Shown here: one piece after another, positions 1 through 11,812 of the stretch | Numbering within the stretch: the first letter of the stretch is position 1 | How the letters are laid out: every line of letters starts with the position of its first letter | Source of the DNA: Hadesarchaea archaeon | GTDB lineage: Archaea > Hadarchaeota > Hadarchaeia > Hadarchaeales > Hadarchaeaceae | DNA: 37,364 nucleotides | NCBI GenBank assembly: GCA_029259175.1 | Contig: JAPDJH010000010.1 | Span: forward strand, 1 to 37,364 | Direction of reading: 5' to 3' | Position numbers and translations under genes: made by a program | The notes under the pieces: model-generated | What the model saw: only the letters and a program-made list of their open reading frames with translations | What the model was told of the DNA's origin: nothing | The model's database searches: none

Positions 1-126
1 GCGCTTCTGCTGGGCCTTCGTCTTCTTCTACAACCGCTGCAGGTGGCATCAAACACTGAAGGGGCCTCCATCCGGGGGCGATGGTGGGTTAAAGAAGTGG
101 CTGGAGGTGGTTATTTGAACAGCATC
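1..126 (+). mobile_element. 3' end of an IS6-like DDE transposase gene (partial, stop 116-118) and probable right end of the element
   Basis: Frame 2 reads RFCWAFVFFYNRCRWHQTLKGPP...EVVI*, the YN-x2-R-x-H-x2-L C-terminal motif of IS6/integrase-core transposases. The stop overlaps TTGAACAGCATC, which resembles archaeal IS6 ends. Confidence 0.6.
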
Positions 127-380
127 TTTTCACCCACAAAAAAGTTTATAAGAGAGAGGTCGTTAATTTCACACTCCTTAATGCCTCTAAAATTAGCTAT
201 CTTGATTTGTCTTAGCATCCCCATCACTCGAGTGTGTGATGTTGATCAAACGATATAAAATTTACCTTCTCGTCACGGCTTGATCGGAACGCTGAATACC
301 TGCTTTAGTCACTTCCCCAGACCAACGAATGAAAGAAGCGATGAAACATGCGCGTATCGGACCGAAAGTGCATAAGCGAA

Positions 381-466
381 TCTGCCAGAGTTATGATCGA
401 GGCGACGCGCCACTGGCAATCCATCTACGACCTTGCGGGATCACCAAGCTCGAGGTCTACTTGGCT
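381..466 (+). pseudogene. possible relic of an IS110-family transposase N-terminal (DEDD) domain
   Basis: ARVMIEATRHWQSIYDL, then in another frame LEVYLA, resembles the IS110 V-x-x-E-A-T-G-x-W...l-e-V-x-L-a segment. Short and frameshifted. Confidence 0.3.
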
Positions 467-652
467 GAGTTCAAAACCGTCTTTTTTGGAATCCCGAGCT
501 CCTCGACGTTTCAAATATCAGAAGAGAATATCATCTCGTCGATTAAAAAATCGTAAGAAATTCAGAGGGGTAGCACATATGATAGAGAAAACACACTTTA
601 TGCTCAGCAGATCATCATTTGCTTGTCACATAGATTTTATAGCGATAAAATT

Positions 653-1138
653 TTACCAGCTAAACTTTCTAGCGAGAAAACTAAACAGCTGGCTCAACCA
701 AGATCTTAACTCATCGCGCTGTTTTACCAATCTAGACTTATAAGGAGGACACTCACTAAACTTAGGAAACTGAGCATCAAATTTCTCTCCTAGCCCATAC
801 GTTTGTCTTATGTCATCATGAATACTATTGTAAATTTGAGACCATTTGTTTACTACTTCTTTTAGTTGGAGATAAATTGCGTGTTCTTCCGGAAGTCTGT
901 CGCTGTACAACTTATTAAACACATTATCATATGCGTTTATCTCATTCAATAAAGTCGTGATTCTCAACATAATGGAAAGAGTATCCGAGAATTTTCTTTT
1001 TCTTTCTATCTCTTCAATCAATCCATGGGCTAATTTTTCACGAGCGACTCTCAAGCTTCTTTCGAACTCTTCACTGATGCTTTTATCCATCTCATATTTT
1101 GTTTTTTCTTTTTTCGAGCTTAAATTTCTTGGGGTCAT
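653..1138 (-). CDS. hypothetical alpha-helical protein (AT-rich orphan)
   Basis: 161-aa ORF from ATG 1138 (MTPRNLSS...) with charged helical composition. The upstream extension to 1270 runs into repeat DNA. Confidence 0.6.
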   Translation of the reverse strand: MTPRNLSSKKEKTKYEMDKSISEEFERSLRVAREKLAHGLIEEIERKRKFSDTLSIMLRITTLLNEINAYDNVFNKLYSDRLPEEHAIYLQLKEVVNKWSQIYNSIHDDIRQTYGLGEKFDAQFPKFSECPPYKSRLVKQRDELRSWLSQLFSFLARKFSW

Positions 1139-1303
1139 GGTGTAGATAGTAACTGAACATGGTTTCGAACCAATGTAAATGTAATTCTGAGATTTTACAC
1201 CGATAAAATACCTGCACGGGCCTTTAGCAGGGTCTGCAAATCCTTTGAAACCCTCAAAACGATTGAACATACCGAACGCGGAAGTTACATCTCGGCGTGA
1301 TGA

Positions 1304-1332
1304 GGTACCCAGGGGGAGGGGGGCCAGACCCC
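1304..1332 (-). repeat. C/G-rich motif copy E (inverted, degenerate)
   Basis: Minus strand reads GGGGTCTGGCCCCCCTCCCCCTGGGTACC, similar to the copies at 2145, 2640, 3219 and 5685. Confidence 0.55.
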
Positions 1333-1460
1333 GTTCCGAGGATAATCAATATCCTTTATCAGCCACAGTTGCGCTCTTTCGCCGCGAATTCCTCCGAGAG
1401 CAAGAGGGCATTGCCTTCAGAATCACTAGTGGTCTTAAGTAACTGGTTACCTGCCGCTGG

Positions 1461-1543
1461 TTAAGGTGTTTTGAGGGCGAAATGAGGGTGTTTTGAGGGT
1501 GTTATGAGGAAATCCGTTTAAGGAATTTGAGGAGATTTTGGGG
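1461..1543 (+). repeat. 11-bp-phased TGAGG array
   Basis: TGAGG at 1472, 1483, 1494, 1505 and 1528, with variants TAAGG 1462/1519 and TGGGG 1539. Confidence 0.75.
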
Positions 1544-1822
1544 AAAAATCCACAGCCCACACACGATTTGGGTTCACAACATTCTCCCAACGCTCGAGCT
1601 TGGGTTCACCGGGTGTTTGCCTTCTTTACAACCATCGCGGATGGCACCTGACAGCGGAGAAACCTACGGACTTGATCAAAAGGAGTCCATTTGAACACTG
1701 ACAAAGAAAAAGGGGACTGGAAGTAACCCCTTCGTGCGGTGCTTCAAAGAACGTGATACATCCATACTGCTGGCTAATTTCGAATAAAAAAGCGCTGTCT
1801 TCCCAACAAAGAAGAATGGGCT

Positions 1823-2165
1823 CCCCAACGGGCTTTGATGGGCCAAAATCGGTGACGCGATAGGCCGCTGAGGTTCCCCGATGGGTCCTTCGAACCGCCC
1901 TGTATGGTTCCGTGGATGGGTCCATGCAAATTTTTCAACGGCAGTTATGGGCGATTTTGTGGGAATTTATCGGGAGTTAAATCGTCCGTGTATCGGTCGA
2001 TGCATCCGGATGCCCAAGGAAAACGGCATAACCCTTGGTAATCTGGATTTATGGCTCCTTGATTTTGGCGTGATGGCGGTCAATGCGGTTGGAACCAGGA
2101 CGCACTCCTATTGGGAGTTCAAACCGCGTATTCGGGTGGGCCATCCCCCTCCCCCCGGGGGTCCC
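1823..2165 (+). repeat. diverged direct-repeat unit 1, ending in C/G-rich motif copy A
   Basis: Shares CCCCAACGG, GGTCCTTCGAA, TTTTTCAACGGCA, TGCCCAAGG and GGAGT-CAAACCGCGT-TTCGGG-GGGCC blocks with 2322-2660 at about 500-bp offset. Confidence 0.8.
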
Positions 2166-2321
2166 AGAGTCTGAAAAAGGCAAAATCGGCTCACCAGCCA
2201 CACCCATCCGTAGCTTGCGGAATTTTTGTTTGAGTTTTATGACCTGTGATTTTAGGCGGTTGTACATTTCGCAAAGATTCCCGAGCTCTCGCTCGTTTTA
2301 TCCGTCTTATTATAGCAAGTC

Positions 2322-2660
2322 CCCCAACGGTCTTCGATGGGTCAAAAATCGGCGGTTGCAACGGACCGTTGAAGACCCGTCGATCGGTCCTTCGAAGGGG
2401 CCTTGCATGGCTCCATGAACGGGGCCTTGGGCTGTTTTTCAACGGCAATCAAGGCGATTTTCAACGGAAATCGATCGCCCCATGCATCGGTCGTTGCATC
2501 GACCTTGCCCAAGGTAAAACGGTATAACCATTGGAAGGCCCCTTCAAGGGCCCGTTAGCCTAGCGTAACGGCGACCGATACGGCGAGGGCTAGGGTGAAC
2601 CCCGGTATCGGAGTCCAAACCGCGTGTTCGGGCGGGCCGCCCCCTCCCCGGGGGGTTCGG
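2322..2660 (+). repeat. diverged direct-repeat unit 2 with 12-bp-phased CCnTnnAnGG palindromes, ending in motif copy B
   Basis: Words start at 2366, 2377, 2389, 2401, 2413 and 2425 (e.g. CCTTCGAAGG, CCTTGCATGG, CCATGAACGG). Colinear with unit 1. Confidence 0.8.
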
Positions 2661-2729
2661 GTTACCCGTAAAAACCCGATAGCGCAAAGCCCTTTGCCGA
2701 TTGGAGCGGGGGCCTCGTGCTCAGAGCAA

Positions 2730-2922
2730 GCCAAGATTATGGGTTTAGGCCCCTAATCTGGGCCTAATCCCGCGAGGTTAGGGGCCTAACGGCTTTCGAG
2801 ACCCGCCTAAACCGATCCCTAAACATGCCAAGATCACGAGTTTAGGCCCCTAAACCAGACCTAATCCTGTGAGATTAGGGGCCTAATGATTTTCGTGACC
2901 TGCCTAAACCACCCCTAAAGTC
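2730..2922 (+). repeat. tandem 97-bp duplication rich in TTAGG-N2-CCTAA palindromes
   Basis: GCCAAGAT starts at 2730 and 2827. The copies keep every TTAGG/CCTAA word and differ mostly by transitions. Confidence 0.9.
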
Positions 2923-3143
2923 CACCTAAAGTATCCTAAACTGGCCCTTATCTGATAAGGCTAAAATTTAAGGTAAAATTAGGCGCGTTTAGGAGCGAAT
3001 TGCGGATGTTTTAGGAAAATTTGTGGTTCAGCGCAGAAATGTTTAGGCCAAGTTTAGGTCCTGAACGAGATATTTTAGGTCGCGGCGCTGGGGCGTTTAG
3101 GCCCAAGTTTAGGATTGACCGTTCTCGGTTTAGGTTCGCTAGG
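2923..3143. repeat. CCTAAA / TTTAGG word array flanking the palindrome CCTTATC-T-GATAAGG (2946-2960)
   Basis: CCTAAA words lie left of the palindrome. TTTAGG occurs at 2988, 3010, 3042, 3053, 3074, 3096, 3108 and 3129 on the right. Confidence 0.8.
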
Positions 3144-3201
3144 TCAGAAAGGCTGGGGTATTTGAATCTCCTGCCGGAAAACAACGGCGAGCTGCTGGCG
3201 T

Positions 3202-3240
3202 CGTGTTCGGGCGGGCCTCCCCCCTCCCCCCGGGGGTCTG
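3202..3240 (+). repeat. C/G-rich motif copy C
   Basis: CGTGTTCGGGCGGGCCTCCCCCCTCCCCCCGGGGGTCTG, nearly identical to copies A and B. Confidence 0.85.
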
Positions 3241-3376
3241 GGGCCCTTTTACGCCCGAAAACGACTGAAAATGTTCGCCGGCGGATCCCAAGCACCCTCC
3301 GTGCTCAAGCTCTAAAACACGAATGACGTGCTTTGAAAACACAAAGTAATATAGGGCGAATTTTCACTTTGTGTTC

Positions 3377-3421
3377 GCTTAAGTGTTTACTTAAGTGCTC
3401 ACTTAAGTCCTTCACTTAAGT
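3377..3421. repeat. four phased (A)CTTAAGT palindromes
   Basis: CTTAAG at 3378, 3390, 3402 and 3415 (12, 12, 13 bp spacing). Confidence 0.85.
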
Positions 3422-3599
3422 AGTTTGTTACCTTCTCCGTTTTTCGAGTTTCGCACGTGAAATCATGTGATTTTTTGTGTTGTCTAATAGAATCCCGTGG
3501 GAGATCATTGCGGTTTTATGCGTGTAAAATTAGGATTTAAGCTCCAAATTTTATTTCTAACGTTTGAGCATTATTGTTACTTGGGTTGTGGAATCATCT

Positions 3600-5480
3600 T
3601 CATCCCGAGGAGAAAAAGTACACTTTTCCATTTGAACCACTTGCTACAAAATACTTTCCATCTGCTGAGATAGCCACCGATTGAAAGCTAACCATGGACA
3701 ACATGCCGCTCTTTTCTTCATATTTCCAGATAGGAGAATTGCTAGATCTGGTAAAGAGCTTCACACCCTCTTGATCAGCTACCACAATATGCCTCCCATC
3801 GGCCGAAATCGCGACGGAGGGCACCGAACCCACAGACGCATTCCATATGGGCAAGTTGCTGGAACTAGAAAGCAAAAAGAGCTTGCTACCCGCTACCACG
3901 GCGATATAATCCCCATTTTCTGAAATGGCGATATCCCAAGTTGCCAATCCGGGATCAAATGTCCACAGTAGTGATTTGTTATCTATCGAAAATAGACAGA
4001 CTTCGGTAGTAAAGTTTCTTGCAGCGACGAGATACTTACCATCAGATGAGATTTCCACATCTCTCCAGCCCCAATCACCACCTGAATATTCGTAAATTAT
4101 GCTTCCGTCTTGAGCAAACACCCGAAGCTTGTCTCCCCACGGCTCACCTGTTGCGATACGTGATCCGTCTGCGGATATAGTCACGTCACCGTTTGTTGGG
4201 TAGGTCCACAAAGGTTGGTTGCTCGATGGAGACAAAATAGCGAGGTTGTTCTGTACTACCGCAATAACACTACCATCTTGAGACATCGCTATGCTCGAAG
4301 CTCCCTCTTCAAAGGTCCACAAAGGAGCAGGATTATCCTTACTAAACAGCAATACAGCCTGACCATAGTCCACCGCTGCCGCCAAGTAATGTCCATCTGA
4401 GGAAAGCACGATATCATTGGCTGGTCCTGAGGCATGGTATTCCCACCTCAGACTACCATCGGCAGAAAGTGAGTAAATCTCATATCCGCCCACGGCTACA
4501 ACCACATTGCCGTCAGCGGAAATGGCTACCTTGGTGGGGCATACTATGCCCCCCTCTGTTTGGTAAGTCCAAAGAAGCTTTGGTCCTTCTCCTCCGGTCA
4601 TTTGCTCTAGAATTGTGGGGCCCCAGTGGATTGCACCATATAACAGCACTACCACAACGACCGCCAGTGTTAGAAGTTTCGCCGAGTTCCCTAACTGAAC
4701 ACTCCCACCAATCGCTGATCCGAACCACCCACCAAAAGCAAAAGCGAGCAAAGCAACAAACCCATTTAGTGCAATGATTTGAATTACAGTTTCTTCCCCC
4801 GCTATGCTCATTATATAGCTCAGCTCTTCTCCGCTTAGAATGTAGAAAACAGCCCAGCCCAATCCAAAAGTGATCAGGAATGGGACGAGAATTCTTTTCC
4901 ATATCGCCCCTGCCACAAAGCCGCTGACTATCCACGCTAGCCACGAAATCATCGAACTGAAAGGCGAGAGAAATGCAACAGTCAAAAGGAGCAAGGTGTT
5001 TTCAGTCCCCACCATATTTGCGAATTGTGCCATGCCCGGAACTAGAAGATACATGAAAGCCAAGCCAGCCAGAAACGGCATAATGGCACCAATCATCAGT
5101 ATGAAGATTGAAGAGAGGCTTCCTCCGAAATTTTTCAAGATTTTAAATGCTTGAGACCTAGAGACCTTTTTTGACTTCGGAGGAACCCAACTTTGTGTTA
5201 TAAGATGGGGCTTTCTTTTAGATTTTTTCTCTGCTTCTATTGGGGAGACTTTTGGGCTGATTTTCGGAGGTGGAAAAACAGTTTTTCCTTTTCTTATCTG
5301 CTCTTGTTGATAGACTCCCCAATCTTTCTTAGACAGTTTTGGACAATTGTGGTTCTCGGGTAGATAATGATCTGAGCAAAATCTGTTGCCACAGTAATTA
5401 CACCGAAAAGGTAGCTCTGTAAAGGGTTTTCCGCAGAAAAAACACTTATTGGGAGGAACGTTGCCCTTAGACAACACCAT
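3600..5480 (-). CDS. AN1-type zinc finger + multi-pass membrane region + C-terminal WD40/PQQ-like beta-propeller protein
   Basis: N-terminal CFFCGK...PFRCNYCGNRFCSDHYLPENHNC, then about 6 hydrophobic segments, then repeated (V/I)AISADG..(I/V)..W blades. Confidence 0.85.
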   Translation of the reverse strand: MVLSKGNVPPNKCFFCGKPFTELPFRCNYCGNRFCSDHYLPENHNCPKLSKKDWGVYQQEQIRKGKTVFPPPKISPKVSPIEAEKKSKRKPHLITQSWVPPKSKKVSRSQAFKILKNFGGSLSSIFILMIGAIMPFLAGLAFMYLLVPGMAQFANMVGTENTLLLLTVAFLSPFSSMISWLAWIVSGFVAGAIWKRILVPFLITFGLGWAVFYILSGEELSYIMSIAGEETVIQIIALNGFVALLAFAFGGWFGSAIGGSVQLGNSAKLLTLAVVVVVLLYGAIHWGPTILEQMTGGEGPKLLWTYQTEGGIVCPTKVAISADGNVVVAVGGYEIYSLSADGSLRWEYHASGPANDIVLSSDGHYLAAAVDYGQAVLLFSKDNPAPLWTFEEGASSIAMSQDGSVIAVVQNNLAILSPSSNQPLWTYPTNGDVTISADGSRIATGEPWGDKLRVFAQDGSIIYEYSGGDWGWRDVEISSDGKYLVAARNFTTEVCLFSIDNKSLLWTFDPGLATWDIAISENGDYIAVVAGSKLFLLSSSSNLPIWNASVGSVPSVAISADGRHIVVADQEGVKLFTRSSNSPIWKYEEKSGMLSMVSFQSVAISADGKYFVASGSNGKVYFFSSG

Positions 5481-5641
5481 CGCCTCTTATTTCCTCTAAG
5501 CCTAAAAATAGGTCGATTGCCGTCCATTAAATTTTTTTGTGGATGTAATTTTATCGACGTAAACTTGGAGCTATCGCTTACCTAAGCCATAGATTCTAAG
5601 CTGGACAACCGAAGTTTAGAATCGGTTGTTCCAATGGGTTC

Positions 5642-5846
5642 TGCTAGCAAAAGGTCGGAACTTCGGCAAAATGCTCTCTCGGGACCCCCCTCCCCCCGGG
5701 GGTCCGGCTCCCTGCCTAGCTCAGCAAGCAGGGCGTGACCCGCATATTTCCCCCTATTTTAGCAGAGCCTGCTAGCACGTTGCTAGCAAATGCTGCCCAA
5801 ACGCAAGCAAAACCCAGAAAATTCTAGCATCCGTGCTAGCAAATGC
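5642..5846. repeat. C/G-rich motif copy D (5682-5705) embedded in a TGCTAGCA palindrome array
   Basis: GGACCCCCCTCCCCCCGGGGGTCC. TGCTAGCA at 5642, 5770, 5781 and 5834, with variants TTCTAGCA 5822 and GCAAGCA. Confidence 0.8.
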
Positions 5847-5966
5847 CGGTGGATTCCTTCATTTAGGGACCGGATAAGGTGCCTTTGGATCACCCAATGG
5901 TTTTCTGAGGCGAACGAGAAAGGGCACCTCAGACCTGGGTTCTGATAAACACACAAGTGGAGAAAC

Positions 5967-6656
5967 TCACTCTAGATACAGCGCTCTTCGAAGGAAGGAC
6001 TGAAGCGGTGCGATCTTGCGCTTGAACAGGAGCCCCTTGTCCGGGGCCTTCTCCTGTTCGCGCTTCTCTGGTTCCTCTTCCCACTCTATCTTGAATCCAC
6101 ACCTCTGGAGGTCCCAGACAATGTCTGGGAAGTGGCGGCGCACCGAGGGGGAGAGGGTTATCGTCTTCACCTCCGGCTGTTTGGGTGCGTTCTCCCCGCT
6201 CTCCGTGCCGGGCACAGCTTTCACCCGCTCGAGTTCGTTTTTCAGAGCCTCCACTTCCTTCGCCCTCTCCTCGGACTCCCGCTTGAACTTCTCCTCGAGC
6301 TGTGCGAAGCGCTCCTCAACATACCTCTTGAAATCCTGCTCCCTCTTCTCCATCGCCGTGAGCCGCTGATCCAGAGAGGTGCGCAGGTTCTCCAGCCCGT
6401 TTCTCAGCATGTCCACTATTTCCACCCCCATTCTCCTGACCTGCTCTGCGACCTCTGCTTGGGAGCTGCATGGTGGCGGTGTTTCCCTAGTTTGTTGAGA
6501 GGGCACGGGCAGAGCACCGGGAGGCTGTTCTCGGCGTGGTATGAGGCTGGGAGTCTGCGCGTGCCTCCGTTTGCATCCTTTCGTGTGACCTCCCAACGCC
6601 TGAGGGGACGGGAACGGCCCCGCTCCGCAAATCTTGCAGCGCAGTATTTTCACCAT
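5967..6656 (-). CDS. zinc-finger (C2HC/C2H2-like) + coiled-coil protein, putative DNA-binding
   Basis: CKICGAGPFPSPQALGGHTKGC, a Pro/Gln linker and a long heptad E/K/R-rich segment. Confidence 0.75.
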   Translation of the reverse strand: MVKILRCKICGAGPFPSPQALGGHTKGCKRRHAQTPSLIPRREQPPGALPVPSQQTRETPPPCSSQAEVAEQVRRMGVEIVDMLRNGLENLRTSLDQRLTAMEKREQDFKRYVEERFAQLEEKFKRESEERAKEVEALKNELERVKAVPGTESGENAPKQPEVKTITLSPSVRRHFPDIVWDLQRCGFKIEWEEEPEKREQEKAPDKGLLFKRKIAPLQSFLRRALYLE

Positions 6657-7065
6657 TCAAATCCATGACCAGCTGGACAAATGCAGTATTTAACTCTAAT
6701 TTTTGTAAACTTTTATTCTTGGATGTTTTCGGACCCGAACCCTTATTTTTGGCAGGCCCCTCCGGGCCCACTTCTTTCTGGGGAACTTTCTTGCTGAGCA
6801 AGCGGTGGGCCTCCAGCTGTTGAGCTCCGCTCCTTTTCTTTTTGCATTTCCATACTTAGCTGGGAACTTTCGTTTGATGTCCTAACACTCTCCCACCCGG
6901 AGGCATAACTGCAAGCGTGCTCCAGCATACGCCTGAACATCTCCTGTCGCGGCGTCTATCCGGGCCCTAACCGGAGTTTGTCGTCCCTTCTCCGGTTCCT
7001 TTGGGATGCAGTTTATTTTGCATACGTATGTATTTATAAGGTCATTATGAGAAGCCATAGAGGGT

Positions 7066-7416
7066 ATGAAAATGACGAAAAAGATTAACAACTTGATTGC
7101 CGAAATTTCGAACATTTTGGGCATAAGTGCTACGGGTAGGATGATTTTGAACTCTTTGGTAAAAACCAAGAAGAAACTGTCTGTATCTGAAATTACTGCA
7201 AAAATCGAGAGATCCGAAAGGTCTGTAAGGGCGCAGTTAAAAAACCTTACAGGGTTAGGACTTGTTAAAAGAGAAATAATAATCACAAAAAAGGGCAGGC
7301 TCGCTTATCAATACTTTGTGCCTCGGGTAGAGGGGTTGGTTAAGTCAGTAAAGAAAGAAATGGCCAGGCGATTGCGCACTCTGGAAACGGATATGAAGGG
7401 GCTGAGGGAAAGATGA
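7066..7416 (+). CDS. winged-HTH transcriptional regulator (ArsR/TrmB-like)
   Basis: LSVSEI...RSERSVRAQLKNL..LGLVKRE wHTH signature. TTTATAA box at about 7033. Confidence 0.85.
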   Translation: MKMTKKINNLIAEISNILGISATGRMILNSLVKTKKKLSVSEITAKIERSERSVRAQLKNLTGLGLVKREIIITKKGRLAYQYFVPRVEGLVKSVKKEMARRLRTLETDMKGLRER

Positions 7417-8422: not shown

Positions 8423-9540
8423 AGATTGCACTATGCAGCGATTGGTATCCCAGAATAGGTGGAGTGACTTCTCACATGGTGTGTCTTGCAAAGGAGCTGC
8501 AGAAACTAGGACACGAAGTCACGATAATATCAAAAAATGGTCATGAGGGAGCGATGCATGAAATTTCATTGAATGTAAAGGAGACGAATGTTCAGTTTCT
8601 TCCGGACAGCGTTTTAACCCCACCAAACCTGAGGAAACTCGGAAAGATTTTAAAGAAGGGAAAGTTCGACGTTGTTCACGGGCATCACGCGTTCGTGCCG
8701 ACTTCTCTTTTCTCGATATCGTTAGCGAAGAGGTTAGGTACGCCCACCGTTTTGACGAATCACTCAATACCATTCGGGCATAGTAGTTGTGTTTGGGCGC
8801 TTATTGGTTATAGTCTCCTTTTTCCCTATAGAAGATACATAAACAAGGCGGACAAAATAATAGCGGTCAGTAATGCGGCAGCTGATTTTATCAAGCATTT
8901 TGCCGATGAAAGAAAAGTTTTGGTAATACCAAATCCGGTGGATGACACGTTTTTCAATGATGGTTTCAATAATAAAATTTCGAATGAAAACAAGAGTCCA
9001 ACAATACTCTACGTGGGCAGGCTCTCCCATAGAAAGGGGTTGCATGTGCTTGTGCTTGCCATGAAACGTGTTGTCAAAAAAATTCCAGACGCCCGATTAC
9101 TCGTTGTTGGGGAGGGGCACACAAAGGAGTTTGTTAAACTACTAGTTAAGGCGCTGGGTTTAGAAAAAAATGTCAAATTGTTAGGTTTGGTTCGTCTACA
9201 ACAGCTCCTGTTGTTGTATAAAATGTCCAATGTGTTTGTTCTTCCCTCGATATATGGAGAGTCTTTCGGCATCGTTTTGTTGGAAGCCATGGCTTCTGGA
9301 GTGCCCGTTGTGGCCACAGATGTTGGTGGAATAAACGAGGTCATTACCCCTAACTATACAGGTCTTTTGGTCGAGCCGGGTAACAGCAAGGAGTTGGCCA
9401 ACGCCATACTGAAAGTTTTGAACGATTCAAGCCTCTCTAAAAAGTTGGCTAAAAACGCAAGGAAAGAAGCTATGAAATACAGACCGCGCATTATCGCTAA
9501 AAAAATTGAAGGTGTTTATGAAGAATTAACGCTTAATTGA
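8419..9540 (+). CDS. glycosyltransferase family 4 (GT-B)
   Basis: MKIAL...YPRIGG, VGRLSHRKG and ESFGIVLLEAMASGVPVVATDVGG. ATGA overlap with the UbiA stop. Confidence 0.92.
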   Translation: MKIALCSDWYPRIGGVTSHMVCLAKELQKLGHEVTIISKNGHEGAMHEISLNVKETNVQFLPDSVLTPPNLRKLGKILKKGKFDVVHGHHAFVPTSLFSISLAKRLGTPTVLTNHSIPFGHSSCVWALIGYSLLFPYRRYINKADKIIAVSNAAADFIKHFADERKVLVIPNPVDDTFFNDGFNNKISNENKSPTILYVGRLSHRKGLHVLVLAMKRVVKKIPDARLLVVGEGHTKEFVKLLVKALGLEKNVKLLGLVRLQQLLLLYKMSNVFVLPSIYGESFGIVLLEAMASGVPVVATDVGGINEVITPNYTGLLVEPGNSKELANAILKVLNDSSLSKKLAKNARKEAMKYRPRIIAKKIEGVYEELTLN

Positions 9541-9571
9541 CAGCAGTTATTCAAATTTTGTATAATTTCAC

Positions 9572-11812
9572 TCATTTGCGTTTGATTTTTCGCCCCACCA
9601 GCACGAGCATCGCGGGCAGGGCCAGCAGAACAGCCACGTAGGAGTAACCAATCACTAAGGCCGTGAGCTGCCCGAAGCGCGCCATCGCTGGCATCCGCGA
9701 GAGTGAGAGCACCGCGAAAACCCCAATGGTCGTAGCGGCCCCAACAGTGATCGGCACTCCGACACTGCTGAGCGTTTGCCGCAGCATCTGCTCCGGATCC
9801 TTTCTTTGCTCCTCCCTGAACCGGTGGATGAGGTGGACAGCGTAGTCGATCCCCAGACCGATTATCAGCGCCGAAATCCCCATTGAGAGCACGTCCAGCG
9901 ACCACCCGAGCGCCCACATTGTCCCGAACTCCCACGTCAGCACTATGAGCAAGGGTGTGATGGCGGCGGCCCCCAGGATCGGCGAGCGGAATAGGAGAAT
10001 CAGAACCGCGAAGCACAGGATAACGGTAATAGTGGTCGAATTTCTCATCCCGCGCATCACCATGTCCATAATATCCGCCAAAATAGGTGGCAGTCCCGTG
10101 ACTGCCGGATCTCCGTCAACCCGCATGTTCAGCACTCCCTCGTAACCCCCCACGTGCTCTCTCACCACGCGGGTGGCCTGTTTCATCTGCTCGTCCGTCC
10201 GCGCGTCGACCATGATGTGGATGACAGCGGTTCCGTCCGCGCTCAGGAGCATAGCCTTCCGCGAGTTTTCGATGTTTTCCAGAGTTGCGGCCACGGCCTG
10301 CTGGTCGGACGGGATCGTGCCGTCAGTGTGGTATGCAACCAAGTCGGCGATGCTCAGGGCTCCCGTGATCAATCCCGCTCCGCTTGGATCCGACAGGATT
10401 TCGTTTTCCACCGCCAGCATGTCCTGGAGCCCCTCAGGAGTGAGGGTCGCTCCCTGCACGAGGACTATGATCGAAGTCTGCCCCCCGAAGAGGTCCTCAA
10501 CCCGGTGCAGGGTGGCGACTGATTCTATTTGGGAAGGCAAGAAGGTCTCGAAGGACATCGTGCTCGAGATTCGCGGGGTGACGATCGCGCACGGGATGGT
10601 GACTAGGAGGACGGCCGCCAGAATAGGCTTCCAGTGGCGCTCAGCCCCCACTGCCAGCCGAGCGAGCCCCCTGCGCAGCCTTTCGCCCCTCATCCTCATG
10701 GCTCTCCTCGTCCGGTTCCGATCCCGAAGGGCTACCGCGGCAGGCAACAGGCTCGCACTGAGCACGAACATCAGACCTATACCAATGGCCAAGAATTCTC
10801 CGAGGGTCTGAACAGGAGGCAGATCTGACATGAGGAAGGATCCGAACCCAATGATTGTGGTCACCGCTGCGATGGCGATGGCCCGCCCCACGGTCCCGAC
10901 CGCGATCGTTGCTGCTTCTGTGGCTTTTATCCCTCGCTTGCACTCCTCATAGTACCGGTTCAGATAGTGAACCGCGTAGTCGATTCCCAGTCCGAGGAGC
11001 AACGGAACTACTGCTACGTGCAGAGTGGTGAACTCGATCCCCAGATGGCCCATCAGCCCCACCGTCCACAAGGTTCCCACCCCCACTACCAGGAGAGCCA
11101 TGGGGATGTCCGAGAGCCGTCTGAAGATCACGAAGATTATCGCGGCGACCAGCACGATGGCTGTGGGGATGAGAATCCGATTGTCTTGATCCATCATGCT
11201 GTGCATGTCGCGGTAGAGCGCGACATCCCCAGTGACCCTGACCGCGAAGTTCTCATCGGCGACCGAATCCGCGTACTCTCTCACCCGGTCCACAATCTGG
11301 TTTTTTGTCTCCTCCGGAGCGTCTGCCGAAATCGAAACGGTCAGCAGGGCTGCTTTTTGGTCAGCGGTTATGTATTTCCCCACCACCATCCCCGCGACCT
11401 CTGGACGGGTCAACACCTGTTGGACGGCGATCTCCAGCTGCACACCTTGGGGCAACATGCCTCCGGTGTTTTCGAGAATCAGCGGGAGCACATAGGTGAG
11501 GTAGGAGGTCTTCTGGAGCAGGACTGTTTGAATCACCGCATCCTGTTGGATGAGGTTTTCCAGCAGGAGGATGCGCTCTATCGCGTCAGCCCTCGCAACG
11601 TTTTCGCTTTCTATCAGGAGCATGATTTGGGAGGCACTCGGAAACCGTTCTTGGTATTCCTTGAGTGTCTTCACGGACGGGTAGTGCTCGGGAAGAAACT
11701 GTTCGTACTGAACCTTGGTGGTGAGTTTGGTTGTCCCATAACCCATCGCTGCGCTGATCGCGATGGATATCAGCACGATCGCCGCGATCGTTCTGCGCGA
11801 AAATTTCAACAC
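9572..11812 (-). CDS. MMPL/RND-superfamily (HAE3-type) transporter
   Basis: Two internal repeats each with GLGIDYAVH, about 12 TMs and two extracytoplasmic loops. Confidence 0.92.
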   Translation of the reverse strand: MLKFSRRTIAAIVLISIAISAAMGYGTTKLTTKVQYEQFLPEHYPSVKTLKEYQERFPSASQIMLLIESENVARADAIERILLLENLIQQDAVIQTVLLQKTSYLTYVLPLILENTGGMLPQGVQLEIAVQQVLTRPEVAGMVVGKYITADQKAALLTVSISADAPEETKNQIVDRVREYADSVADENFAVRVTGDVALYRDMHSMMDQDNRILIPTAIVLVAAIIFVIFRRLSDIPMALLVVGVGTLWTVGLMGHLGIEFTTLHVAVVPLLLGLGIDYAVHYLNRYYEECKRGIKATEAATIAVGTVGRAIAIAAVTTIIGFGSFLMSDLPPVQTLGEFLAIGIGLMFVLSASLLPAAVALRDRNRTRRAMRMRGERLRRGLARLAVGAERHWKPILAAVLLVTIPCAIVTPRISSTMSFETFLPSQIESVATLHRVEDLFGGQTSIIVLVQGATLTPEGLQDMLAVENEILSDPSGAGLITGALSIADLVAYHTDGTIPSDQQAVAATLENIENSRKAMLLSADGTAVIHIMVDARTDEQMKQATRVVREHVGGYEGVLNMRVDGDPAVTGLPPILADIMDMVMRGMRNSTTITVILCFAVLILLFRSPILGAAAITPLLIVLTWEFGTMWALGWSLDVLSMGISALIIGLGIDYAVHLIHRFREEQRKDPEQMLRQTLSSVGVPITVGAATTIGVFAVLSLSRMPAMARFGQLTALVIGYSYVAVLLALPAMLVLVGRKIKRK

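What the first reader, a model, noticed from the sequence alone, without database searches (positions are those of the whole stretch)
1250..5846. Modular non-coding array: one conserved C/G-rich anchor motif, each copy paired with a different phased-word array
Seen: five copies of an anchor (core CCCCCTCCCCCCGGGGGT; 1304 inverted, about 2145, 2640, 3219 and 5685). Copies A, B and C are spaced about 500-580 bp apart. The DNA beside each anchor is built from a different short, mostly palindromic word repeated at about 11-12 bp: TGAGG, CCnTnnAnGG, CCTAA/TTAGG, ACTTAAGT and TGCTAGCA. No credible ORFs lie in 1300-3600. Inference: this looks like a stacked collection of homologous cis-acting sites (replication origins, partition sites or viral packaging/terminal sites), each with a common processing site but a different protein-specificity code. 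One possibility is a satellite or decoy locus that has accumulated addresses for several different mobile elements. I know of no named feature with this grammar.
Basis: partly seen in the sequence, partly recalled or inferred. Interest (0 to 1): 0.85.

Follow-up and report, generated by a model that had tools for sequence, protein, structure and literature searches.

The report
Stacked repeat arrays sharing one hairpin
A strain-specific, mostly non-coding stretch of an uncultured vent archaeon holds five different arrays of short phased DNA words, each beside a copy of one GC-rich hairpin motif; they look like leftover protein-docking sites of mobile DNA, and their function is unproven.

Summary
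The anchor (core CCCCCTCCCCCCGGGGGT) occurs five times in 1307-5704: four direct copies and one inverted, diverged copy. It was found nowhere else in the 1.3-Mb genome or in the 66 genomes of the phylum. Each word array is 30- to 1000-fold enriched and mostly phased at 11-12 bp.

New facts:
- Units A and B are 68%-identical 340-bp paralogs. Copies C, D and E share only the 25-45-nt anchor, and similarity always stops right after GGGGGTC.
- The locus lies in a strain-specific, ORFan-rich region of about 9.4 kb that starts at an IS copy.
- It is neither coding nor an Rfam RNA, tRNA-att, Orc1-type origin (the canonical oriC is on another contig), integron attC array or assembly artefact.
- The TGAGG array sits upstream of a roughly 160-aa helical ORFan. 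The only homolog in the phylum also follows a stack of phased word arrays.

Best reading (about 0.4): decayed cis-acting, iteron- or centromere-like protein-binding modules of small mobile replicons, joined at a shared recombination or processing site.

No initiator, partition or recombinase gene, and no outside homolog of the anchor, was found. The mechanism is therefore inferred, not shown.

The parts
1..127 (+). 3' end of a multicopy IS (tail of a DDE transposase gene). The contig breaks here.
   Evidence: The stretch is 99-100% identical to C12:1-127, C7:67275-67401, C11:379-504 and C2:101267-101388.
662..1138 (-). Gene for a helical protein of about 160 aa from an unnamed family. The listed ORF 653-1270 is 205 aa, but the true start is probably M45 at 1138.
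   Evidence: 24 distant homologs of 108-186 aa align from residue 45-62 onward. None of the 10 homologs scanned, nor the ORF itself, has a Pfam family above the curated cut-off; two homologs gave only weak sub-threshold hits. AF2 with the alignment gives pLDDT 83 and a helical bundle with no informative PDB match. The only homolog in the phylum is at G049:C3:19826-20293.
1307..1340 (-). Anchor E, the inverted and most diverged copy.
   Evidence: Model R1 scores it 25.9 bits at 1301-1338, minus strand.
1337..1357 (.). Inverted pair of the E-module word (GAGGAT...ATCCTT).
   Evidence: (I16 arm) and inspection.
1462..1552 (+). E-module array: 7 direct WWTRAGG words found by the script at 1462, 1472, 1483, 1494, 1505, 1519 and 1528, plus a degenerate eighth (TTTTGGGG) read by eye at about 1540. 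Spacing is 9-14 bp. Two 22-bp units are 86% alike.
   Evidence: (D15).
1823..2163 (+). Unit A: a 340-bp non-coding paralog of unit B. It holds CCnTnnAnGG words at 1898 and 1910 and ends in anchor A (2131-2163).
   Evidence: (68% identity over 353 columns), and 83 (38.8 bits).
2322..2658 (+). Unit B: paralog of unit A. It holds 12-bp phased words at 2389, 2401 and 2413 and ends in anchor B (2627-2657).
   Evidence: and 83 (28.5 bits).
2727..3135 (.). C-module TTAGG array with 25 words. The left half is a 97-bp unit repeated twice, with 16-bp palindromes (GTTTAGG-CC-CCTAAAC type) and half-sites mostly in minus orientation. A short AT-rich centre lies at about 2940-2975. The right half has 9 direct TTTAGG words at multiples of 10-12 bp.
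   Evidence: (D1, D5, I17, I18).
3206..3238 (+). Anchor C, set in a long imperfect hairpin (3185-3280).
   Evidence: I2. The RNA fold has z = -4.39. Model R1 scores it 37.7 bits.
3377..3423 (.). ACTTAAGT array: 4 palindromic words at 12-13 bp spacing, flanked by AT-rich DNA.
3600..5480 (-). 626-aa gene lying between anchors C and D. It encodes an AN1 zinc finger, a hydrophobic stretch that looks like membrane segments (by eye, not tested), and a beta-propeller.
   Evidence: Pfam hits to zf-AN1, PQQ_2 and WD40-like families.
5642..5649 (.). Single TGCTAGCA word upstream of anchor D.
5679..5704 (+). Anchor D. Only the core is shared; its 20 nt are identical to anchor C.
   Evidence: Model R1 scores it 32.3 bits.
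5770..5841 (.). TGCTAGCA array: three full palindromes (5770, 5781, 5834) and one half-site (5824).
5967..6656 (-). ORFan gene. The 229-aa ORF has a weak C2H2-like finger and a helix-rich, charged middle (by eye). A 154-aa version was the only database hit.

Best explanation
Window 1300-5850 is a mosaic of at least five separate cis-acting, protein-binding repeat modules of the iteron, centromere or operator type. It lies inside a strain-specific island.

Each module is an array of one short word. The words are mostly palindromic or arranged as direct-plus-inverted sets, and they are phased at about 11-12 bp or about 22 bp. Dimers or monomers of one cognate DNA-binding protein would therefore line up on one face of the helix.

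The modules are joined by copies of one GC-rich element of about 25-45 bp. It consists of (G)TTCGGGYGGGCC followed by a C5-6 T C4-6 G5-6 T(C) hairpin. Its 3' edge is sharp and its core is identical between otherwise unrelated flanks.

I read the anchor as a shared site of recombination or strand processing. Small mobile replicons, or their control regions, would have been stacked at this site one after another (tandem accretion). They then decayed, leaving arrays without their initiator, partition or recombinase genes.

Shown: the anatomy, the statistics, the uniqueness of the anchor, the island context, and the exclusion of coding sequence, known RNAs, tRNA-att sites, ORBs and attC sites.

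Inferred: that proteins bind the arrays, that the anchor is a recombination or processing site, and the mobile origin.
For: 1. Anchor signature.
- A 17-20-nt core is identical in A, C and D although their flanks show no similarity. Smith-Waterman z-scores run from -1.2 to 3.3 for every pair except A-B, which scores 41.6.
- Four of the 5 copies have the same orientation.
- Similarity ends right after GGGGGTC in all copies, while the left edge varies.
- All 5 strong model hits lie within 4.4 kb. None was found elsewhere in the own genome or in 65 other genomes of the phylum.

2. Arrays.
- Enrichment is 30- to 1000-fold with helical phasing.
- Words are palindromic (ACTTAAGT, TGCTAGCA, GTTTAGG-CC-CCTAAAC).
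- The E module combines 7-8 direct words, as 22-bp units, with an inverted pair of the same word nearer the gene. This is the layout I recall for iteron plasmids.
- The C module has two opposed half-arrays around a short AT-rich centre.

3. Foreign or accessory context.
- Bases 128 to about 9540 have no DNA match in 20 relatives, whereas the MMPL gene onward does.
- Same-genus G002 has housekeeping genes directly next to MMPL.
- The island begins at an IS copy.
- Local genes are ORFans.
- None of the island words is clustered elsewhere in the genome.

4. Not the host origin. Canonical ORBs cluster at C4:113636-114033 and there are none in the window. The orc1/cdc6 genes are on C4.

5. Link between array and gene. 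The homolog of the roughly 160-aa gene in G049 is the only other copy among 66 genomes. It also follows an 837-bp non-coding leader with stacked word arrays: TAGG 15 times in about 200 bp against about 1.3 expected, plus ACTTGG, GTGGA and others. These lie 227-428 bp upstream of the start. In the window the TGAGG array lies 324-412 bp upstream.

6. The locus is real. It is held by 11 runs of 6 studies; 5 runs hold at least half of the sampled words. A run of another study carries units A, B and the left part of C at 94-97% identity.

7. Analogy only. The same ACTTAAGT word phased at about 11 bp occurs in 4 unrelated viral contigs. In one it lies in the intergenic region upstream of a primase/helicase gene.
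Against: - No Rep, Orc1, MCM, ParA/ParB-type, terminase or integrase gene lies in or beside the region. Ten and ten ORFs were scanned against Pfam and PHROGs. The three tyrosine-recombinase hits of the genome are on C1 and C2.
- The one gene tied to an array is a generic helical bundle, not a winged-helix Rep or a ribbon-helix-helix protein.
- The 'elements' between anchors are only 480-830 bp. That is too small for any known autonomous element.
- A and B look like a local duplication (68% identity) rather than two independent arrivals.
- Copy E is inverted, which simple tandem integration does not produce.
- The anchor varies by homopolymer length between copies and between strains, so it is not a strictly conserved crossover core.
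- No homolog of the anchor plus flank was found in IMG/VR, JGI metagenome contigs, plasmids, phages or the phylum. There is thus no donor element.
- In the second strain, 2 of the 7 listed differences in the C array fall inside words. Words make up about 29% of those positions, so they show no sign of protection (my count).
- The host genome itself uses multi-copy palindrome arrays in ordinary regulatory intergenic regions. Such arrays need not be foreign.
Confidence: 0.4

Rival explanations
1. Host or island regulatory DNA. The arrays would be operator or enhancer-like binding sites, or a factor 'sponge', for transcription factors that control the island's own ORFan genes: the roughly 160-aa gene, the 626-aa membrane propeller and the 229-aa gene. 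The anchor would be a structural or insulating hairpin between regulatory blocks.
For: - The same genome carries arrays of 4-6 copies of 16-18-bp palindromes in ordinary intergenic regions. Examples are CTACGATAAATCGTAG between shikimate-pathway operons at C1:41350, and other words upstream of a ribonucleotide reductase gene, tRNA genes and an HTH-IscS operon.
- The left half of the C array holds palindromes of the same 16-bp format.
- The array-plus-gene pairing recurs in G049.
- A winged-helix-like regulator ORF lies at 7066-7416. This rests on weak PHROG hits only.
Against: - The island arrays lie 100-400 bp from the nearest start codons, or face the 3' ends of genes. ACTTAAGT and the main TGCTAGCA block both do so, which is not an operator position.
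- About 2.3 kb (1300-3600) has no gene to regulate.
- Spacing is 11-12 bp, against 40-100 bp in the host arrays.
- None of the host arrays has the anchor.
- None of the island words forms a cluster elsewhere.
Confidence: 0.2
2. Units A and B, and perhaps shorter RNAs at C and D, are genes for structured non-coding RNAs of about 340 nt. Each would start just after a TATA-like box and end in the anchor hairpin.
For: - A/T-rich TATA-like boxes lie about 27-35 nt upstream of the point where A/B homology begins (1783-1791 and 2293-2313; sequence, alignment).
- RNAalifold closes the 5' end onto the TTCGGGYGGGCC half of the anchor and finds 10 two-sided changes in 77 pairs.
- Anchor C folds far better than shuffles (z = -4.39).
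- Contigs of an RNA library cover 1174-2002. DNA carry-over cannot be excluded.
Against: - No Rfam match, even at E up to 10, apart from one chance-level hit of 18 bits against a gathering score of 45.
- The opposite strand gives the same alifold statistics: 10 two-sided changes in 70 pairs.
- Anchors A, B, D and E do not fold better than shuffles (z from -1.3 to +0.4).
- Of 15 variant sites in a second strain, 7 fall in predicted pairs. Five of these break the pair and 2 keep it.
- Variants are not depleted on A/B-conserved columns (7 of 15 against 62% expected, p = 0.18).
- Palindromic words phased at the DNA helical repeat point to double-stranded DNA recognition.
Confidence: 0.1
3. An integron-like cassette array without its integrase (CALIN). 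The anchors would be attC-type folded recombination sites and the arrays the cassette cargo.
For: - Four same-orientation sites lie less than 4 kb apart (495, 580 and 2466 bp). This meets the spacing criterion quoted by Ghaly et al. 2022 (PMC9668308; passages and section 7 read).
- That paper reports archaeal integrons, mostly CALINs, in nine phyla.
- Anchor C is an imperfect palindrome of about 95 bp.
Against: - By inspection the anchors read 5'-GTTCGGG...CCCGAAC-3'. The GTT triplet is on the 5' side and AAC on the 3' side. This is the reverse of the attC layout as I recall it (R'' RYYYAAC ... R' GTTRRRY), and the first R position is C.
- Three of the four 'cassettes' have no ORF at all. The fourth carries its gene in the opposite orientation.
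- No integrase gene is in the window.
- The attC covariance model of IntegronFinder could not be run here.
Confidence: 0.05
4. Integrated fragments of the ends of linear viruses or plasmids. These would be terminal repeats with telomere-like short words and a terminal GC-rich hairpin or resolution site.
For: - The TTTAGG word of the C array is also the repeated word in the 21-nt motif said to be common to the termini of all rudivirus genomes (passage of PMC7156643).
- The anchor core contains a 10-bp perfect palindrome.
- Copies E and A are inverted relative to each other.
Against: - Sharing one 6-mer among five words is weak evidence.
- BLAST of 1280-3600 against 50,697 phage and archaeal-virus records found nothing.
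- Scans of viral contigs with the extended anchor found 0 matches.
- No viral hallmark gene was found in the 10 island ORFs scanned.
- None of the 18 CRISPR spacers of the genome matches the island.
Confidence: 0.07
5. Assembly artefact or chimeric contig end.
For: The region lies within 6 kb of a contig end that breaks in an IS. All contig ends overlap by 127 nt, the assembler's word size.
Against: - Contigs assembled independently from runs of several studies cover the region at 94-100% identity. They include pieces that bridge anchors A and B: 2073-2449 and 2461-2760 in X5, and 2340-2667 in X7.
- No joints or indels were reported.
Confidence: 0.02

Closest known systems
Iteron-controlled plasmid origins (pPS10, pSC101, R6K, RK2). 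Named from my own knowledge, not from a call.
   Same: - Direct repeats in units of about 22 bp, phased on one face of the helix (E module).
- An inverted copy of the same word closer to the adjacent gene.
- Arrays next to AT-rich DNA.
- Word sets that differ between replicons, giving specificity.
   Different: - No Rep initiator gene. The adjacent gene encodes a helical bundle of unknown family.
- No DnaA- or Orc-type boxes.
- Five different arrays are stacked in 4.5 kb.
- A shared GC-rich hairpin between them has no counterpart.
- The host is an archaeon.
Plasmid partition centromeres made of phased short repeats (parC of R1 and pB171, omega/ParG-type heptad arrays). Recalled, not from a call.
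   Same: - Many copies of a 5-11-bp word in direct and inverted orientation at about one helical turn.
- Two blocks flanking a central region (C module).
- Cooperative coating by small dimeric proteins is the expected mechanism.
   Different: - No ParA/ParM-type NTPase gene and no ribbon-helix-helix gene nearby.
- Several unrelated arrays lie side by side.
Archaeal Orc1/Cdc6 origins with ORB elements and haloarchaeal G-strings (Wu et al. 2014, PMC4010727; passages read)
   Same: - Repeats flank an AT-rich stretch.
- Replicator-initiator pairs enter chromosomes through integration of extrachromosomal elements.
- A G-run lies beside the repeats.
   Different: - The island words do not match the ORB pattern: 0 hits in the window, against a cluster of 4 at the genome's own oriC on contig C4.
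- No orc1/cdc6 gene is adjacent.
Clusters of attC sites lacking an integrase (CALINs) in archaeal integrons (Ghaly et al. 2022, PMC9668308)
   Same: - Same-orientation, imperfectly palindromic sites less than 4 kb apart separate unrelated segments.
- The sites are more alike within one genome than between genomes.
   Different: - The R-box layout is reversed.
- The cassettes are non-coding.
- No IntI gene.
Tandem accretion of integrative elements and cis-mobilisable remnants (CIME-type arrays in streptococci). Recalled, not from a call.
   Same: - Direct repeats of one short core separate unrelated blocks.
- Blocks may have lost their recombination genes.
   Different: - Blocks are only 0.5-2.5 kb.
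- No tRNA or other gene serves as the target.
- No integrase at either end.
- One copy is inverted.

Membership tests
Iteron-type plasmid replication origin | Three or more direct repeats of about 17-22 bp phased at one or two helical turns | tested here: met
   E module has 7 words found by the script, plus a degenerate eighth read by eye, at 9-14 bp spacing. Two 22-bp units are 86% alike. The right half of the C module has 9 direct words at multiples of 10-12 bp.
Iteron-type plasmid replication origin | Adjacent gene for the cognate initiator (Rep) | tested here: not met
   No Rep family in Pfam or PHROGs for the ORFs of 1-7400. The gene next to the E array is a helical bundle without a named family.
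Iteron-type plasmid replication origin | AT-rich unwinding element next to the iterons | tested here: inconclusive
   There is a short AT-rich centre at about 2940-2975, and AT-rich DNA around 3340-3600. No melting calculation or functional test was done.
Iteron-type plasmid replication origin | Supports autonomous replication | not testable with these tools
   This needs a replication assay or marker-frequency data.
Archaeal Orc1/Cdc6 origin (ORB) | ORB or mini-ORB consensus repeats | tested here: not met
   The pattern TCCAnnnGAAA gives 0 hits in the window. A cluster of 4 with G-rich tails lies at C4:113636-114033.
Archaeal Orc1/Cdc6 origin (ORB) | Adjacent orc1/cdc6 gene | tested here: not met
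   Both Cdc6_C hits are on contig C4.
Integron cassette array / CALIN | Two or more sites less than 4 kb apart in one orientation | tested here: met
   Four direct anchors at spacings of 495, 580 and 2466 bp.
Integron cassette array / CALIN | attC architecture: 5' RYYYAAC ... GTTRRRY 3' boxes at the base of the fold | tested here: not met
   By inspection the anchors read GTTCGGG ... CCCGAAC, which is the reverse order. The consensus is recalled. The IntegronFinder model was not run.
Integron cassette array / CALIN | Cassettes carry short ORFs, mostly in one orientation | tested here: not met
   Three of the four inter-anchor segments have no supported ORF. The fourth holds a 626-aa gene on the opposite strand.
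Tandemly integrated elements with att repeats | Identical core repeated directly between unrelated blocks | tested here: met
   A 17-20-nt core is identical in A, C and D, and the flanks are unrelated.
Tandemly integrated elements with att repeats | Recombinase gene at one end; target usually a tRNA gene | tested here: not met
   No Phage_integrase hit on the contig and 0 tRNA genes in the window. The left side is cut by an IS and the contig end, so a lost integrase cannot be excluded.
Partition centromere (parC/parS-like) | Adjacent partition NTPase gene and centromere-binding-protein gene | tested here: not met
   No such family among the ORFs scanned.
Structured non-coding RNA | Match to a described family, or covariation that supports one strand's fold | tested here: not met
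   Rfam gave 0 hits at gathering score and one chance-level hit at E up to 10. Both strands give equal alifold statistics. Strain variants break 5 of the 7 predicted pairs they touch.
REP/MITE-type dispersed palindromic element | Many copies dispersed over the genome | tested here: not met
   All 5 copies lie in 4.4 kb and none lies elsewhere.

The most novel reading that the evidence does not exclude
The locus is a functional 'address stack'. It would be a chromosomal island that collects the initiator- or partition-protein binding arrays of several different plasmids or viruses, each captured at one common hairpin recombination site.

It could act in either of two ways:
- As a titration or handcuffing decoy that blocks replication or segregation of those invaders. 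That would be a defence based purely on non-coding DNA.
- As a gene-less satellite that can be excised at the anchors and ride on whichever helper is present.
Probability: 0.08. Interest if true: 0.85.

Novelty: new variant of a known kind. Interest (0 to 1): 0.5.

Why it matters
If the arrays really are docking sites of several replicons joined at a common site, this would be the first sign of how small archaea of this little-known vent lineage carry, stack or disarm mobile replicons. No plasmid or virus of this lineage turned up in any collection I searched.

It would also be an example of modular capture of purely non-coding cargo. Finally, it ties an unnamed family of roughly 160-aa helical proteins to long leaders full of phased word arrays. 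That gives a concrete DNA-binding hypothesis to test.

If the locus is only decayed junk, it is still a clean natural set of five different phased binding arrays. Such a set would be useful for finding the cognate proteins.

Tried and rejected
Restriction-site decoy. The words contain CTTAAG, GCTAGC, GGCC and CCCGGG. However, none of the 64 palindromic hexamers is avoided genome-wide; observed/expected ratios run from 0.78 to 1.24. Rejected.

tRNA or stable-RNA att fragments. There are 0 tRNAs and no BLAST similarity of 1-7000 to the rest of the genome except the IS tail. Rejected.

Coding remnants. Frames are not conserved between A and B. The two ORFs tested (1245-1442 and 1881-2174) gave no family hit.

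CRISPR link. 18 spacers were extracted from C1:214.3-215.7 kb. The only matches elsewhere in the genome are chance-level (13-18 nt), and none lies on the window's contig.

Short BLAST hits of the region in relatives are chance-level and are not in CRISPR arrays. They are 23 nt in G005 and 36 nt in G018.

Second conserved motif after the anchors. CCTCGTGCTCA-like strings follow anchors B, C and D, and a 12-mer is shared with G049. The downstream flanks are not significantly similar, and shared 10-mers with G049 are at control level: 7 against 5.1 +/- 2.7, with 84 of 300 controls at least as high. I treat this as chance.

MITE reading of the E...A pair. No target-site duplication is visible (inspection).

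Synteny. The insertion point could not be defined because gene order differs between G000 and same-genus G002.

Integrase neighbourhoods. No anchor-like direct repeats lie around the three tyrosine-recombinase hits.

Reads.
- Read laying used contigs only. No joints or excised forms were listed.
- The RNA-library contigs leave 2006-3570 uncovered.
- Neither result is evidence for or against excision or transcription.

Searches for the 160-aa family.
- 0 of 38 genomes in one other archaeal phylum had a match.
- 1 weak hit in 329 genomes of another phylum.
- Scans of viral contigs with the 205-aa and the 229-aa proteins found no relative.

Fold searches of the 160-aa protein gave only generic helical bundles. 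Foldseek's best E was 0.17. VIA's best Z was 9.8, below the level that is meaningful for helical bundles.

The plain 18-mer scans of viral and genome collections returned only unrelated contexts.

Full report
**What the window is.** The window is the whole of contig C10 of a 1.306-Mb, 23-contig archaeal genome bin that is 90.9% complete. The bin carries two orc1/cdc6 genes on contig C4. It has a canonical origin there, with four ORB-type repeats at C4:113636-114033. Runs that hold the locus are labelled hydrothermal-vent and marine-sediment metagenomes. The phylum, as held here, has only 66 species genomes of about 0.6-2.2 Mb. I could not name it with the tools at hand.

**Check of the observation: the anchor.**
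- The 18-mer core is present exactly at 2145, 3220 and 5686, and with three mismatches at 2640. Shuffles expect 0.04 matches.
- An inverted, more diverged copy lies at 1308-1323.
- Aligned, the element is about 25-45 nt long: (G)TTCGGGYGGGCC, 0-2 nt, then C5-6 T C4-6 G5-6 T(C).
- A sequence-only model of the five copies scores them 25.9-38.8 bits. The next best hit in the own genome and 65 other genomes of the phylum scores 19.6 bits, in a genus that gives dozens of low-complexity hits.
- The core alone is not diagnostic. It turned up 133 times in fetched loci of high-GC bacteria and viral contigs, with unrelated flanks.
- The extended pattern found nothing in IMG/VR. In the JGI metagenome contigs it found one low-complexity chance match.

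**Check of the observation: the word arrays.** The arrays are real.
- TTAGG: 25 occurrences in 400 bp against 0.25 expected.
- TGAGG: 5 against 0.15 expected, at spacings of 11, 11, 11 and 23 bp.
- CTTAAG: 4 at spacings of 12, 12 and 13 bp.
- TGCTAGCA: 4 occurrences.
Seven of the 15 window matches lie in units A and B, with 12-bp runs at 2389/2401/2413 and 1898/1910.

- Units A (1823-2163) and B (2322-2658) are 68% identical over about 340 bp and end in their anchors.
- No other pair of flanks, upstream or downstream, is more alike than shuffled controls.
- In all copies, similarity stops immediately after GGGGGTC, whereas the left boundary differs from copy to copy.
- The E module consists of seven direct WWTRAGG words found by the script, plus a degenerate eighth read by eye. 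Two of its 22-bp units are 86% alike. An inverted pair of the same word lies nearer the neighbouring gene.
- The C module has a left half built from a duplicated 97-bp unit with 16-bp palindromes, a short AT-rich centre, and a right half of nine direct TTTAGG words.
- ACTTAAGT and TGCTAGCA are themselves palindromes, spaced one helical turn apart.

This is the grammar of double-stranded DNA recognised by dimeric or cooperatively binding proteins.

**Context.**
- Bases 1-127 are the tail of a multicopy IS whose copies break several contigs.
- From 128 to about 9540 there is no DNA match in 20 relatives, while the MMPL gene and what follows are conserved.
- In same-genus G002, MMPL abuts housekeeping genes.
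- The island's genes are a roughly 160-aa helical protein, a 626-aa AN1-finger/beta-propeller protein, an ORFan of 154-229 aa, a small winged-helix-like ORF, a UbiA prenyltransferase and a GT4 glycosyltransferase.
- No replication, partition, packaging or recombination gene was found among them.

**What it is not.**
- Not coding. A and B differ by indels that are not multiples of three, and they do not share frames.
- Not a described RNA and not a tRNA fragment.
- Probably not a structured RNA. The consensus fold is no better on one strand than on the other. Four of five anchors fold no better than shuffles. Variants in a second strain break five of the seven predicted pairs they touch.
- Not Orc1-type ORBs.
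- Not attC sites by box layout or cargo.
- Not a dispersed REP or MITE.
- Not restriction-site decoys.
- Not a CRISPR target.
- Not an assembly artefact. Contigs assembled independently from other runs bridge anchors A and B. A run of another study holds A, B and the left part of C at 94-97% identity, while two pieces of the neighbouring gene are identical.

**A new link.** HMMER against 1.84 billion representatives found 24 distant homologs of the ORF at 653-1270. All are 108-186 aa long and align from residue 45-62 onward, so the gene probably starts at 1138. None of the 10 homologs scanned, nor the ORF itself, reaches a Pfam family's cut-off. The protein folds as a helical bundle without an informative structural match.

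Within the phylum it occurs in only one other genome, G049, which belongs to another family of the same order. There it is again preceded by an 837-bp non-coding leader packed with different phased words: TAGG 15 times in about 200 bp, plus ACTTGG, AACCCT and GTGGA runs. These lie at the same distance from the start codon as the TGAGG array in the window.

Nothing else is shared between the two islands, and their non-coding parts share no more k-mers than controls. So 'array stack plus this gene' behaves as a small, patchily distributed unit. The protein is a candidate for the factor that binds its own upstream array. That is inference from two cases.

**Host background.** The same genome uses arrays of 4-6 copies of 16-18-bp palindromes, spaced 40-100 bp apart, in ordinary intergenic regions. 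Examples lie between shikimate-pathway operons, upstream of a ribonucleotide reductase gene, upstream of tRNA genes, and next to an HTH-IscS operon. Multi-site arrays are thus part of this lineage's regulatory style, which keeps the regulatory rival alive. Even so, those arrays lack the anchor, differ in spacing, and sit where operators should. The island arrays lie far from promoters or face the 3' ends of genes.

**Most likely mechanism (confidence about 0.4).** Each array is the docking site of one specific DNA-binding protein, of the initiator, centromere-binding or repressor type. The anchor is a shared site at which DNA segments were joined. Three features point to this: an identical core in unrelated flanks, one sharp edge, and copies confined to this locus. 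This is the footprint of site-specific recombination or hairpin-directed nicking rather than of selection on a dispersed motif. The modules would be remnants of small mobile replicons or their control regions, now without their genes.

Against this reading:
- No enzyme or donor element was found.
- The blocks are tiny.
- A and B look like a local duplication.
- One copy is inverted.
- The second strain gives no sign that the words are protected from mutation.

Analogies recalled from the literature are iteron plasmids, parC-type centromeres and PICI origins. These describe how the locus may work; they are not membership claims. The one observed analogy is an ACTTAAGT array upstream of a phage primase/helicase gene.

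**Verdict.** This is a real and statistically robust non-coding feature, so far unique, with a clear grammar but no demonstrated function. I rate it a new variant of a known kind (phased protein-binding repeat arrays of accessory DNA) and of moderate interest. It is a single-lineage occurrence, and its most exciting readings (decoy or gene-less satellite) remain speculative.

Noticed in passing
window 1-127; also G000 C12:1-127, C7:67275-67401, C11:1-504, C2:101267-101388: A multicopy IS whose transposase tail and end are 99-100% identical between copies. It causes several contig breaks. C2 holds only a 122-nt remnant. Weaker copies (77-82% identity) exist in relatives G005 and G006.
   Followed up: partly
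G000 C1:41350-41575, C14:4040-4335, C7:6740-6885: Arrays of 4-6 copies of the 16-bp palindrome CTACGATAAATCGTAG in intergenic regions. They lie next to shikimate-pathway (aroA side), aldehyde-oxidoreductase and carbamoyltransferase-like genes. This looks like one amino-acid-metabolism regulon with unusually many operator copies.
   Followed up: partly
G000 C16:6080-6945, C2:168900-169160, C2:187630-187790: 14-15 copies of the palindrome TGTCCCATATGGGACA. Two arrays lie directly upstream of what look like tRNA genes (read by eye, not confirmed with a tRNA scan). One lies next to an HTH regulator, cysteine desulfurase and NifU-like operon.
   Followed up: no
G000 C2:15120-15600, C2:26870-27305, C3:183130-183880, C9:43120-43489 / C5:1-100: Further arrays of different 16-18-bp palindromes: ACTACGAACCTTCGTAGT, TGACAAAGGTTTGTCA, CTACACA..TGTGTAG upstream of a ribonucleotide reductase gene, and TCTAGACACGTGTCTAGA at two contig ends that are reverse complements of each other.
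   Followed up: no
G000 C4:113636-114033: Four canonical ORB-type repeats (TCCAGTGGAAAC followed by a G-rich tail). This is probably the chromosomal oriC, about 10 kb from the nearer orc1/cdc6 gene.
   Followed up: partly
G000 C1:214320-215700: A CRISPR array with a 37-nt repeat and 18 extracted spacers. None matches the genome itself beyond chance.
   Followed up: yes
G000 C1:8229-15628: A 2.9-kb segment repeated in tandem at 98.8% identity, apparently inside a very large repetitive surface-type protein gene.
   Followed up: no
loci L050, L061, L071, L093, L097, L118, L120, L121 (Acidobacteriota genomes): The same C-rich hairpin 18-mer sits in a conserved context (...cgata-[18-mer]-ctaatggaatcatcg) in several Acidobacteriota genomes. 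In others it is extended to a GGTACCCCC...GGGGGTACC stem. This may be an undescribed bacterial hairpin motif, unrelated to the archaeal locus.
   Followed up: no
L162:3769-3798; L159:11816-11845 (= L161); L160:160-195: Unrelated viral contigs carry arrays of 3-6 ACTTAAGT words phased at about 11-12 bp. In L162 the array lies beside a second iteron set, in the 830-bp region upstream of a primase/helicase gene.
   Followed up: partly
window 3600-5480 (-): A 626-aa protein with an N-terminal AN1-type zinc finger, a long hydrophobic stretch that looks like several membrane segments (read by eye from the translation, not tested), and a C-terminal beta-propeller. This is an unusual combination. Pieces of the gene are identical in a run of another study, whereas the non-coding units beside it differ by 3-6%.
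   Followed up: no
L180 (G049:C3) 8990-9826: An 837-bp non-coding leader upstream of the homolog of the 160-aa gene. It contains stacked runs of ACTTGG, TAGGRA, AACCCT, GTGCACAAG and GTGGA words, and a hairpin with a G7AGG loop at 9030-9050.
   Followed up: partly
window 632-683, 1190-1211, 3514-3530, 5547-5563: Four to five copies of an AT-rich near-palindrome (ATTTTATAGCGATAAAAT type) lie at gene boundaries of the island. They may be promoter or terminator elements.
   Followed up: no
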